Source: Schmidtea polychroa
Lineage: Eukaryota
NCBI GenBank assembly: GCA_044892525.1
Contig: CM097885.1
Coordinates: forward strand, 7,194,001 to 7,258,000
Direction of reading: 5' to 3'
DNA length: 64,000 nt
Within the stretch, counting starts at the first letter, position 1; the number at the start of each line of letters is the position of its first letter. The notes below the pieces were generated by a model, which was not told the DNA's origin, ran no database searches, and saw nothing but the letters and a program-made list of their open reading frames with translations. The translations under genes and the position numbers were made by a program. Positions 44,022 to 48,915 of this stretch are shown here, one piece after another.

Positions 44022-47000
44022 CTCTGAGTTTATCCGACAGGATGTTTTGACCCCCTAAGGGTACAGGTCGTAAGGATATTAGTCGTAAGGGTACTGGTCG
44101 TAAAGGTACTAGTCGTAGGGGTATTGGTAACACTTAACCACAACCTACCCATTAACTAGCTACTAAGTACTAACCACTAGGTTTCAAACAACAACTACTA
44201 ACAACCACCATCAAAACCCATCGAGAAATTAACAAATATCAACCTACAACTATATAACAATCAGTAAACAACACTGTACCAACTACCAAATACAAGATAC
44301 CAACAACTTAGTACCAAAAATCAACTAACAACACATAAAAATAATAGCAATTAAATACAAAATATTCTTCATCGCATACACTATTTTCTTATCAAAATCT
44401 AAAAAGTCAATCAGATACCAACTACCAAGTACCAAGTACTAACAACCAACTACCTAGAACCAACAACTATGTACTAACAAATTGATCTTTAAAAGCAAAT
44501 ACTCTTCACTTGAAAAATTGGATGAAAAATTATTTGAACTCAAGGCATCAATAACTTGGTAAAAATTGATTAAATAATTGTAAAAATTTAAATTATTCAA
44601 AATAAATATCATAAAAATTTAATTAATGGACAAGAAAAAATTCTAATCATCCAATAAATAAAAAAAAATGCTGATCATTCAAGTTGAATCAACTAAGATA
44701 ATAAATTAATAAGATAAGATCTAGTAGATAATTGATTAAGATTGAATAAATTAATTTAAATAAAATTAAATTTAATTATTTTTGTAAAAGTAATACATGT
44801 ACTCAAATTGATTGACTGATTTCTCAATATATTCAAAAAAAATCAGTATAAATTCATTACAATTATCAAAGTCAGCAATCTACAATAAAAATAATTATCA
44901 TAAAATTCCAAAAGAGACTAGATAACTAATGATAACATCTAATAAACCAGTAAATTTATTTAAATGACAATAATTGGTATATCCTAGTGAATTCTCCAAT
45001 TTCTCATTTCCTCCCAAATATATCAATATGTAAAGATTAGTATTGTAATGATAAATACTTGTTAAAGATCATATATTTACCTCAAACTAACAAGATTCCT
45101 TAAAATCCCTTAAATGACTATATTTCTACCCTTAATTCATATTATTACAAATATTTCACTAAAATCATCTAAAAAGCATCAAATTTCCCTGAAATAACTC
45201 TATCTTTTAAGATTGATATTTTAATGATAAGTACTTGTTAAAGATCATATATTCCCCTCAGACTAATAAGATTGCTTAAACTCCCCTTTAAATGACTATA
45301 ATTCTAACTTTAATTCCTATTATCATACATGTTTCACTATTGATAAAACCGGTTATAATTAACTTTTTGTTAATCACTGTACTCGAAATTTAAAATAAAT
45401 ATAACTGACTAGGTCCCATTAAAAGATTAAATTTATCCATTCAATAAAATATATTTCTTCAAATGATCATTTTTACCAATATTCAACCGATTTAATTACT
45501 AATTAAAATCAAGATTTCTTCCAATAAAGATCAATTTTATTTAGTCGATGTTTTAAGTCCATATTTCTAAACTTTTGTCATTCTCCGCCTAAATAAAGAT
45601 AAAAATAAATTAAAGTTGATATCAATCCCAATTATCTGTAAAGATTTCATTGTCAAAACCAAGTAAATCGATCATTATCCCTACTTAATAAAACATTGTT
45701 CTAAATTAATTTACTGTGCATTAATCACAACCTAATAAAACGATATAATTATTATTGATTCATAACTGACTAATGTATTGCAATTTCCTTAAAAAACATT
45801 GATATTTTACCAACATCACCCTAAAAAAATCATATATTCCCATCGAAACCCTTCCCTCATTAAATATATTCACAATAATATATTCCCATCTTAACCCATC
45901 TCACATTAAATCTAACCGACTATATCCCCTTAAAAGATCATATTTTCCCCATCTTAACCGATCTCTCATTAAATCTAACCAACAATATCCCATCTTAACC
46001 GATCTCTCATTAAATCTAACCGACTATATCCCTTTAAAAATCATATATTCCCATCTCTCATTAAATCTAATCGATAATATCCCATCTTATCCGATCTCTC
46101 AGCAAATATTTCTACCCTTTTAAACATCTATCCGATTATATCCCTTAATTTCCCTAAAGATTCCACCCACTTGAACCCTTTAATATATATCAATCCTCTT
46201 AATATCCTTAGAGAACTTCAAAAAGTATGAATTTCCATAAACTGTTAAAGACACCAGGCATTCTTCCATTGAAATAATTTAGAAGCTAAATAATAAGAGC
46301 CCACTAAAAGATCAAAATTTACTAAAATTTTCTACAAATATTTACCATCAAATACTGGAGATGATATATATTGATTGATCATAATTCTTCATCGATTCAA
46401 CCAATCATTTTCAAGCAATAACAGCAAACTAAATTTCTGTATATCCTACAATAATTATCAAGTAAATTTAAAGTCATTGATAAATATTCTTAGAAAATTA
46501 TTGAAAAAAATTATCTAGTCAAATATATTACAAAGTTATCATCAAAAATTTATTCTATCACTTAATTATTAACCTAATTGTCAATGAAATTAATTTTTAT
46601 TTAAAAACTATTCAATAAAATACAACTAATTATCAAGAAATTAACTAAATTTATCAATTAAATTTATCACCATTAAAACTTTTAATCAGTCAACATGAAA
46701 TTCTTAGAAAATTATTCAATATCCTCATAAAAATTTATCCTACCACTTCATTATTGTAAAATCTCTAATTATTAACCTCATTGAAAATAATTTTTATTTA
46801 AAATTAAAAAAAAAACAAGTCAATAAAAATACATCCAATTATCAAGAAATTAATTAAATTTATCTTAGAATTAGCATTAAATTATTAAATATTCATTCAA
46901 TAAACATGAAATTCGCAAAAATAATAGGAAATTCACAAAAATGATAGATATCCACAAAAATTACAGATAATCAAAAAAATTACGGAAAATAATAGAAATC

Positions 47001-47271
47001 CGCAAAAATAATAGAAATTCACAAAAAAACGATAAAAATTCACAATAAAAAAACGATAAAAATTCACAAAAAAGATAGAAATTTACTTGAATAAAACCAT
47101 CAACTCTAAAAATTATGAATGCCTTAAACATCAAATTTGCCTAAATAATCATTCAAATAAAAACATTAAATACCTTTACGACTAATACCCTTGCGACATG
47201 TTGAATGTGAGTAGTACCCTTGTGAGCAATACCCATAGGGGGACAGAATATTTTGTCGGATAAACTCAGAG
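44022..47271. mobile_element. Pair of DNA-transposon-like TIRs flanked by TA, inside the Polinton-like element
   Basis: TA|CTCTGAGTTTATCCGACA...TGTCGGATAAACTCAGAG|TA with ~16-bp subterminal repeats (GTCGTAAGGGTA). Other end copies at 36428-36513 and ~51525-51626. Confidence 0.65.
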
Positions 47272-47789
47272 TATATATTAATTAACTCATTTATCATTGA
47301 ATTAGTCAAATTATCGTAAATTTCGATAAAAAATCTAAAGTGGTAAGCAATGTAAAGAGAAATATTCTTTAAATTTTGATAAAATTAACAATGAAGGTGG
47401 TAAGAATCTTCATTAAAGTGAGGAAATTATTCATTACTCGATTCAAATGGGTGAAAATAATTGGTAGAATAATCCATTAATGGAGGTAGATAATGAGAAG
47501 TGGCATAGATAAGAAGAAGGTGGATAAGAATGGAAGTATATTAATTGAATTTATTTAAAATTATTTCATAAAATTCATAAATTTAATAAAAAAAAACTTT
47601 TAAAACAAATATTTGTGGGGATGTTTTAAGTGAATAATTAATAAAAATCGGCGGAATATTAGTGATTAATTAATGGAAAATAGAGAATCGGGGAATATAA
47701 GTGAATAATTAATGGAAATTCTAGGGAATACAAATGATTAAATAGTGGAAATCGGGGGAATATAGGAGATTAAATAGTGGGATAATGAG

Positions 47790-48915
47790 AATCGGTGGAA
47801 TATAAGTGAGAAGGATATGTAATTTAAACTATTTTATTACGTAACAAGCCATGACTAGTTTATTGCATAACAAGCTGTGAACGGGATTTTACCAACATTT
47901 TACCTAGTATGTAATTTAATTTTTATTGTATTTTTAAATTGTATATATTTTCAATATCATTCTATTGCTTTATTCCAATAATAAGTTTAAAAAGTATATA
48001 ATGATTAATAAATTAATATCGTGTTAACATTTATTTGAGAATTTAAAAAACTTTACTTAAAATTTAGTGAAATATTTAATTTTGATTGTATTTTATAAGA
48101 CATATATTTGAGTATTAACTTATTTTGATTGAAGTATTATATTCAATATTATGATGATTTTTTTTTTCTAAATTAAAATATTTTAGTGTAAAATAGTAAA
48201 TTTAATAATGAATAGAATACAATATTAAAGGACTTTTTAAAAAGAAAAATTACTTTCTATTACCTAATTTCATCATTAAGTTTAAGAAGTCTATAACTGT
48301 CAATAAATCAATTTCTTATTCACATTTTCTTATAAAACTTATATTTTTAAATTTAGTGTAAAGAATTTAATTTTAATTGTATTTTATAAGTCATTTATTA
48401 GAATATTTATCTTATTTTTATTGAAAGGAGTAATATAATTAATAATATGATAATTGTTTTTGAAATATTTAGTGTAGAATAATAAATTTATTAATAAATA
48501 ATTATTACAATATTAAAGGACTTATACAACAAAATTTTTGTCTTATTCCATAAAAAAGTTTTAAAGTATATAACTGGTAATAAATTAATTTCTTATTTAA
48601 ATTTATTTAAAAAAGCTTTACTTATAAAATTTATATTTTCGAAGACTTATATTTGAATATTAACTTATATTGATTGAAAAGGGTAATTGATTTAGAAATT
48701 AATTAGTGTAAATCAAAACATTTAAATTATTAAGGTATTAAAGTACCTATTCAAAAATTAAAAAAAAGACCTAATCAATAATATTCAATAAAATACTATT
48801 CACAGCTTGTTATGTAATAAACTAGTCACGGCTTGTTATGTAATAAACTAGTCGTGGCTTGTTACGTAATAAAATAGTTTAAATTACATATCCTTCTCAC
48901 TTATATTCCACCGAT
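47790..48915. repeat. Inner inverted repeat (47790-47881 vs 48799-48915) enclosing ~0.9 kb with diverged ~290-bp tandem units
   Basis: AATCGGTGGAATATAAGTGAGAAGGATATGTAATTTAAACTATTTTATTACGTAACAAGCC and its exact reverse complement. Confidence 0.9.

What the first reader, a model, noticed from the sequence alone, without database searches (positions are those of the whole stretch)
46735..48915. Spacer architecture suggests how the palindrome formed (A-B-C-D-C'-A')
Seen: a second inverted pair in the spacer (C 47790-47881, C' 48799-48915), with C' joined directly to the right arm. Segment B (46735-47789) has no mirror copy. C ends in TTATTACRTAACAAGC repeats that look like MITE TIRs around D. 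Inference: a short internal inverted repeat seeded fold-back synthesis on a displaced single strand, giving A-B-C-D-C'-B'-A', and B' was then deleted. Short-IR-seeded palindrome formation and strand-displacement replication are established mechanisms; their use here is a hypothesis.
Basis: partly seen in the sequence, partly recalled or inferred. Interest (0 to 1): 0.7.

Follow-up and report, generated by a model that had tools for sequence, protein, structure and literature searches.

The report
Lopsided hairpin of a Polinton offshoot
The middle of a 16-kb gene-less mirror-image element with Polinton-type ends holds the inner tip of its mirror around a 0.9-kb loop; one arm of this copy likely lost 1 kb afterwards, the loop is likely not a separate jumping element, and the fold-back origin of the mirror is plausible but untested.

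Summary
The A-B-C-D-C'-A' layout is real. C (47790-47881) and C' (48799-48916) share a 62-nt exact core (shuffle maximum 22), and C' joins arm A' through a 3-nt overlap. The host element spans 39971-56056, has AG...CT ends, an exact 6-bp flanking duplication and no long ORF: a likely non-autonomous Polinton/Maverick offshoot. The scan noted such palindromes elsewhere in this genome before.

B' loss is supported. In 4 of 4 public runs, contigs leave C' into B-type DNA and enter A' from B-type DNA; 0 of 32 listed pieces (of 1,734) bridge C'|A'. An old relic at 986-2323 keeps part of B joined to A in right-arm orientation. So C is most likely the inner end of the arm, and the real loop is D (917 bp).

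The MITE idea is not supported: C starts inside B's own repeat array, and D has no other copy in the window.

Seeding by a short inverted repeat stays open. The only hints are a 7/10 match past C's inner end and differences confined to the inner 26-nt units. No linear parent or phased sister was available.

The parts
39965..39970 (+). Left copy of the 6-bp flanking direct repeat (target-site duplication)
   Evidence: only k=6 of k=2..11 matches
39971..46734 (+). Arm A (6,764 bp), starts AG; arrays of 101/149, 30/61, 13/40, 7-21 and 41/104-nt repeats; no ORF over 106 aa
46735..47789 (+). B (1,055 bp): natural continuation of arm A, missing from the right arm of this copy
46725..46914 (+). Second 190-nt unit; the A|B breakpoint cuts about 10 nt into it; intact in the relic at 1873-2323
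47185..47276 (+). Short high-copy dispersed element inside B (93% copy at 36428-36519); serves as positive control for an independently dispersed piece
47645..47809 (+). Array of four G-rich units; the fourth unit is the start of C, so B and C are one native sequence
47790..47881 (+). C: 62-nt exact core plus the rest of two 26-nt units; inner end of the left arm
47882..48798 (.). D: the true unpaired loop (917 bp, 15.5% G+C); mostly three diverged ~290-nt units (75-82% alike); its two ends match 7 of 10 in inverted sense
48799..48916 (-). C': inverted copy of C with three 26-nt units
48914..48916 (.). C'|A' deletion junction, 3-nt shared overlap (chance about 0.11); not bridged by any listed public contig
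48914..56056 (-). Arm A' (7,143 bp), ends CT; 14 mismatches to A in 6,760 aligned bases plus five extra blocks of 12-190 nt
56057..56062 (+). Right copy of the 6-bp flanking direct repeat
986..2323 (.). Old relic of the family: outer-arm repeats on + (986-1502), then part of B joined to inner A on - (1792-2323), 70-80% alike

Best explanation
C and C' are likely the inner ends of the two arms of a gene-less palindromic element with Polinton-type ends, whose parent form likely read A-B-C-D-C'-B'-A' with D as the loop, and this copy's right arm likely lost the 1,055-bp B' by a later deletion at a 3-nt overlap. Shown: the layout, the termini and 6-bp flanking repeat, the junction overlap, and that public contigs of the family run A into B and B into C. 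Inferred: the palindrome arose when a single-stranded Polinton intermediate folded back at the far end of D onto C and was copied out to the terminus; a short imperfect inverted repeat (inner 26-nt units and/or the 10 nt next to them) may have set the fold point (about 45%). Inferred: the element is copied and inserted by enzymes of an autonomous Polinton. B' loss would be the largest of several arm-specific length changes in this copy.
For: (1) Outer 62 nt of C/C' are identical, and the whole pair differs by 1-2 substitutions plus one 26-nt unit, close to the arms' 14 in 6,760. (2), runs X8, X10, X1, X2 on 48860-48970: 0 of 32 listed pieces bridge C'|A'; none reaches more than 4 nt past 48916 or starts left of 48914 while covering A'. 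In 4 of 4 runs loose ends behind 48916-48920 resemble B's end array and loose ends before 48914 resemble B's start (compared by eye). Depth falls at the junction to 20-33% of the C' peak and 6-30% of the A' peak, as it does at the ends of the stretch. (3): contigs carry a variant at 48797 at 26, 27, 38 and 30 letters from their ends in X8, X9, X1, X3, so D-right|C' occurs in the family; since C' continues outward into B-type DNA, D-C'-B' molecules are the simplest reading. (4) Both breakpoints cut through modules that are whole on the left arm. (5) The relic at 986-2323 has outer-arm repeats on + followed by B-A on - (10 of 16 tiles clearly beat their shuffle maximum). (6) The arms differ by five other blocks of 12-190 nt, four with 28-84 nt of exact breakpoint homology. 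(7) 6-bp duplication and AG/CT-type ends are Maverick marks (PMC8097293, passages). Fold-back duplications leave a single-copy spacer with 2-8 bp inverted microhomology (PMC3907307, passages).
Against: Contigs built from 31-letter words cannot phase across the 62-nt core, so no single molecule D-C'-B'-A' was seen. Only 32 of 1,734 pieces and 24 of 73 loose ends were displayed, and contigs drop rare variants. The C'|A' junction is therefore unconfirmed outside this window and could be an assembly error. The left join C|D was not shown bridged by 31 letters. The 3-nt overlap is weak (chance 0.11). The 7/10 inner extension has chance 0.004-0.046 depending on the null and was picked out after looking. 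No autonomous partner was found here: no genome is held and the terminal motif had 0 hits in viral and metagenome contigs. The end reads AGTAGG, one base off the vertebrate (AGT)2 motif quoted in PMC8097293.
Confidence: 0.68

Rival explanations
1. One-step double template switch: the nascent strand folded back from D onto C, copied about 60-90 nt, then jumped at the 3-nt overlap to the inner end of A. B' never existed in this lineage.
For: Gives the same final layout; short copied patches with microhomology are described at complex fold-back junctions (PMC3907307, passages).
Against: D-right|C' occurs in 4 of 4 runs while C'|A' is in none of the listed pieces. If one event made both joins they should be equally common.
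Confidence: 0.1
2. The C'|A' junction is an assembly error in a long palindrome; the true copy has B'.
For: The junction is not bridged by any of 32 listed pieces in 4 runs; long palindromes are hard to assemble (my knowledge).
Against: Unique flanks with an exact 6-bp duplication and 14 scattered arm differences indicate a resolved locus. Several other letters of this copy are also absent from the runs (e.g. rows 46235 and 48301), so the runs may simply lack this copy.
Confidence: 0.08
3. D with its short inverted repeats (or C-D-C') is an independent MITE that inserted into the element and supplied the seed repeat.
For: A 1.1-kb non-coding piece bounded by inverted repeats. Two of five boundary choices gave a flanking direct repeat: 2 nt, and TTAA at 47828/48878.
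Against: TTAA there is self-complementary and lies inside the C/C' match, so it is forced by the palindrome. C starts as the fourth unit of B's own array. The outer flank of C' is B-type in 4 of 4 runs, not varied. D has only six weak AT-rich hits in the window, best 49 nt at E 8e-6, and no depth peak, unlike the dispersed element at 47185-47278, which peaks 3.7 to 7.3 times above its higher neighbour bin in 4 of 4 runs.
Confidence: 0.05
4. B is an insertion into the left arm with a 3-bp target duplication; the right arm shows the empty site.
For: B is flanked by the same 3 nt on both sides.
Against: A|B and B|C are the joins seen in public contigs, the relic has A-B continuous at 70-80% identity, and both ends of B lie inside repeat modules.
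Confidence: 0.03
5. The palindrome arose between two molecules (recombination or end-joining of two element copies head to head at C/D), with no single-strand fold-back; B' loss as above.
For: Internal inverted repeats in adenovirus vector genomes cause replication-induced recombination and rearrangement (PMC2518115, one passage). Sequence alone cannot tell intra- from intermolecular routes.
Against: No direct evidence against. A single-copy loop of 0.9 kb fits the fold-back spacer range of 766-70,466 bp (PMC3907307), and a single-stranded racket-like intermediate is the proposed Polinton route (PMC4196379, passages).
Confidence: 0.15

Closest known systems
Polinton/Maverick elements (PMC8097293, PMC4196379, PMC6431247; passages read) and their non-autonomous derivatives (Kapitonov and Jurka 2006, not held, recalled)
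   Same: 6-bp target duplication, AG...CT ends, terminal inverted repeats, 16 kb total length.
   Different: No polymerase, integrase or capsid ORF. Inverted arms are 6.8-7.1 kb instead of the 100-1,000 bp given in PMC4196379. End motif is one base off the vertebrate (AGT)2.
Fold-back inverted duplications with a single-copy spacer (Hermetz et al. 2014, PMC3907307; passages read)
   Same: Mirror arms around an unduplicated loop of about 1 kb; possible short inverted homology at the loop boundary.
   Different: Here the palindrome is a mobile, high-copy element with its own integration marks, not a one-off chromosome end; the boundary homology is imperfect and unproven.
Adenovirus genomes rearranged through internal inverted repeats (PMC2518115, one passage citing Steinwaerder 1999 and Carlson 2002, which I did not read)
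   Same: A protein-primed type of replicon in which internal inverted repeats drive replication-linked rearrangement.
   Different: Engineered repeats in a vector, against a natural family integrated in a host genome; product structure there is recalled, not checked.
Asymmetric deletions in palindromes (PMC8701086, passages read)
   Same: A palindrome losing DNA from one side.
   Different: There the deletion removes the centre; here it lies inside one arm and leaves 118 bp of mirror next to the loop.
MITEs (definition recalled)
   Same: Non-coding piece between short inverted repeats.
   Different: No independent flanks, no unforced target duplication, no second copy in the window.

Membership tests
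Polinton/Maverick (whole element) | 6-bp target-site duplication | tested here: met
   39965-70 = 56057-62, only k=6 of 2..11
Polinton/Maverick (whole element) | Terminal inverted repeats starting AG and ending CT | tested here: met
   exact vertebrate (AGT)2 motif of PMC8097293 is matched at 5 of 6 bases only
Polinton/Maverick (whole element) | Length about 15-20 kb | tested here: met
   16,086 bp against PMC4196379
Polinton/Maverick, autonomous | Protein-primed PolB and integrase genes | tested here: not met
   only three stop-to-stop frames of 103-106 aa inside the element; these three were not scanned against Pfam
Non-autonomous Polinton derivative | Ends shared with an autonomous Polinton of the same genome | not testable with these tools
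   no genome held; 0 hits in viral and metagenome contigs; earlier scan notes claim it for similar elements, unchecked
Non-autonomous Polinton derivative | Many copies | tested here: met
   46,778, 7,357, 7,584 and 234 records laid on 2.7 kb, with 237 variant rows; not a copy count
MITE (C-D-C' or D) | Terminal inverted repeats | tested here: met
   C/C' 62-nt exact core
MITE (C-D-C' or D) | Target-site duplication at its ends | tested here: not met
   none at C-D-C' or D boundaries; the 2 hits among 5 boundary choices are a 2-mer and a palindrome-forced TTAA
MITE (C-D-C' or D) | Copies in unrelated flanks | tested here: not met
   flank of C' B-type in 4 of 4 runs; no second D in the window; whole-genome search not possible
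Short-IR-seeded fold-back palindrome | Single-copy loop between near-identical arms | tested here: met
   D, 917 bp
Short-IR-seeded fold-back palindrome | Inverted homology at the loop boundary that predates the palindrome | tested here: inconclusive
   7/10 extension; all C/C' differences in the inner 30-56 nt; no linear parent to compare

The most novel reading that the evidence does not exclude
The family is a snap-back satellite of a Polinton, born when a displaced single strand folded back on a short imperfect repeat that still survives at the loop boundary (the inner 26-nt units and the next 10 nt). The loop, the seed and the arm-specific deletions would then be a natural record of single-stranded, strand-displacement replication in Polintons, which the passages I read describe as a proposed mechanism.
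Probability: 0.35. Interest if true: 0.6.

Novelty: new variant of a known kind. Interest (0 to 1): 0.35.

Why it matters
Polinton replication through a single-stranded intermediate is given as a proposal in the passages read (PMC4196379). A high-copy palindromic offshoot with a defined loop offers a direct test: compare loop boundaries with the linear parent across families. This finding adds the corrected anatomy (loop = D, C = arm tip) and population evidence that B' loss is secondary. The deletion itself is an ordinary kind of event, and the family was noted before by this scan on other DNA of the same genome.

Tried and rejected
Whole-genome search for D and for sisters: no genome held. 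Terminal motif scans: 0 hits in viral contigs and metagenome contigs; 2 hits in the window, both ends of this element. Earlier notes by spacer sequence: none. Rfam on 36000-57000 at gathering score: 0 matches. Tile search for an older hidden mirror of B or D inside arm A: only the 190-nt unit and the short dispersed element clearly beat the shuffle maximum, of 21 tiles. Depth of D is lower than that of A and B in 4 of 4 runs, but the tool states depth is no copy number, so I did not use it as evidence for B being doubled. Joints at the C repeat were dropped by the tool, and only 15 of 162 joints and 24 of 1,937 loose ends were shown. Two records with equal depth 239.3 in X8 (record 24, record 29) might be neighbours across C', but they are different records and I did not count them. 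In one search the 'identity to upstream unit' column and the 26-nt breakpoint value were out of register and are not used. Kapitonov and Jurka 2006 was not held, so whether it already describes palindromic non-autonomous Polintons is unchecked. Paper searches listed no paper on gene-less palindromic Polintons by title or abstract start; most subscription papers are not in the library.

Full report
1. Observation. The spacer lies inside a 16,086-bp element (39971-56056). Its ends are complementary, read AG...CT, and are flanked by an exact 6-bp direct repeat; of k = 2..11 only k = 6 matches. The arms (39971-46734 and 48914-56056) differ at 14 of 6,760 aligned bases and by five right-arm-only blocks of 12-190 nt plus small run-length changes. 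Only three stop-to-stop frames of 103-106 aa lie inside. C is 47790-47881 and C' is 48799-48916. Their outer 62 nt are exactly complementary, against a maximum of 22 in 300 shuffles. C' shares 3 nt with the start of A'.

2. What C is. C does not begin at a natural boundary: its first 20 nt are the fourth unit of a G-rich array that starts in B at about 47645. Its inner part is a 26-nt array, two units in C and three in C'. With the extra unit gapped at a point without homology, C and C' differ at 1 of 92 bases (chance 0.17 at the arms' rate); with the gap placed inside homology they differ at 2 (chance 0.016), both in the inner part. So most of C/C' is as young as the arms. It is best read as the inner tip of the mirror, and the true loop is D (917 bp, three diverged units of about 290 nt, 75-82% alike).

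3. Was there a B'? Three lines say yes, none of them phased. First, public contigs. Eleven runs of three studies hold part of the region. On 48860-48970, 0 of 32 listed pieces (of 1,734) bridge C'|A' in X8, X10, X1, X2. A junction-specific piece would be about 57 nt if the contigs use 31-letter words, and pieces of 55, 47, 50 and 50 nt were listed, so one would probably have shown. Loose ends behind 48916-48920 (23, 3, 8 and 9 contigs) resemble B's end array, and loose ends before 48914 (21, 4, 10 and 10 contigs) resemble B's start; I compared these by eye, and 24 of 73 loose ends were shown. Depth at the junction drops as it does at the ends of the stretch. In one search, contigs carry a variant at 48797 at 26-38 letters from their ends in 4 of 4 runs, so the D-right|C' join exists in the family. 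As C' leads outward into B-type DNA, D-C'-B' molecules are the simplest reading. Second, an old relic at 986-2323 has outer-arm repeats on the + strand followed by part of B (to about 47170) joined to inner A on the - strand, 70-80% alike. B's 190-nt unit matches the relic's nearer unit at 156 of 179 bases. Reading this as a B' trace assumes the relic came from one palindromic element. Third, both breakpoints cut modules that are whole on the left arm. Limits: contigs drop rare variants and cannot phase across the 62-nt core; the left join C|D was not shown bridged by 31 letters; and the junction is unconfirmed outside this window.

4. The deletion. It removes 1,055 bp between two copies of a 3-nt word. 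Overlaps of 3 nt or more occur at 11% of random position pairs in this region, so the overlap does not fix a mechanism. Four of the five other arm differences sit in 28-84 nt of exact breakpoint homology, which fits slippage (inference). One-sided deletions in palindromes are described for transgene junctions (PMC8701086, passages), though there they remove the centre.

5. The MITE idea. No flanking duplication exists at the C-D-C' or D boundaries. Two of five boundary choices gave a hit: a 2-mer, and a TTAA that is forced by lying inside the C/C' match. D has six weak AT-rich hits elsewhere in the window, best E 8e-6 over 49 nt. The outer flank of C' is B-type in 4 of 4 runs. By contrast the short element at 47185-47278 shows what an independently dispersed piece looks like in the same data: a depth peak in 4 of 4 runs and varied loose ends on both sides. 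A genome-wide search was not possible.

6. How the palindrome likely formed. Polintons have a 6-bp duplication, inverted ends, a protein-primed polymerase and an integrase, and a single-stranded racket-like intermediate is proposed for them (PMC4196379; PMC6431247; PMC8097293; passages only). Fold-back duplications leave a single-copy spacer of 766-70,466 bp, with 2-8 bp inverted microhomology at 13 of 21 sequenced junctions (PMC3907307, passages). Internal inverted repeats rearrange replicating adenovirus vector genomes (PMC2518115, one passage). I therefore infer a fold-back at the far end of D onto C, copied out to the terminus. A seed is hinted by two things: the match runs on at 7 of 10 bases past C's inner end (chance 0.004-0.046, chosen after looking), and all C/C' differences are in the inner part. 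Slippage in a 26-nt array explains the second equally well, and an intermolecular route cannot be excluded. I put a pre-existing seed at about 45%.

7. Comparison and novelty. The element works like a non-autonomous Polinton. It fails the test for an autonomous one, and its link to a helper could not be tested here. Earlier scan notes describe 14-17.5-kb gene-less palindromes with Polinton ends elsewhere in this genome, and one fold-back on an internal mirror copy of an end. These are unchecked leads; I took the 'satellite' wording and several paper leads from them. Six paper searches listed nothing on such palindromes by title or abstract start. I recall that Kapitonov and Jurka 2006 described non-autonomous Polintons, but the paper was not held, so prior description is unchecked. 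Other papers opened for passages without a bearing result: PMC11414722, PMC5499653, PMC4028283, PMC3185507, PMC13027316, PMC11296320. No supplements were read.

8. Verdict. Observation confirmed; B' loss supported; MITE not supported; seed and strand-displacement step open. Interest 0.35; new variant of a known kind.

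Noticed in passing
47185-47276, 36428-36519, 44015-44125 / 51523-51633: A short (about 92 nt) unclassified element with 15-nt subrepeats. It is 93% alike between B and a site outside the palindrome, has a 75% relative in the arms, and shows a strong depth peak with varied flanks, some of them (AAT)n-rich, in public contigs. No stable fold and no Rfam match.
   Followed up: partly
986-2323: Old relic of the palindrome family in which outer-arm repeats lead, after about 290 unassigned bases, into B and inner A in the opposite orientation.
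   Followed up: partly
52107-55100 and 48799-48916: All six length differences of 12 nt or more between the mirror halves, other than B, make the right half longer (12, 19, 26, 39, 113, 190 nt). Unexplained.
   Followed up: partly
47882-48798: Among the 40 of 237 variant rows shown, at least eight sites in D carry a letter in this copy that 90% or more of the X8 depth lacks, more than the arms' 0.2% divergence would give. This copy may belong to a subfamily poorly held in these runs.
   Followed up: no
47865: The letter that separates C from C' at this site seems to occur widely in X8 and X9 but not in X1 and X3, a weak hint that the inner units of C and C' differ across part of the family.
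   Followed up: no
40003-40022 and 56000-56024: A C-run followed by a G-run about 33 nt inside each terminus, with different run lengths in the two arms.
   Followed up: no
60344-61834 (-): A 496-aa open frame with no Pfam match; by eye its middle resembles a DEDDh-type exonuclease (recalled motif, untested).
   Followed up: partly
14908-16463 (+): TRAF-like gene in two frames; MATH domain at E 1e-17 in the second.
   Followed up: partly
8554-10393 (+) and 20318-20767 (+): Broken hAT transposase (zf-BED and dimerisation domains) and a reverse-transcriptase fragment.
   Followed up: partly
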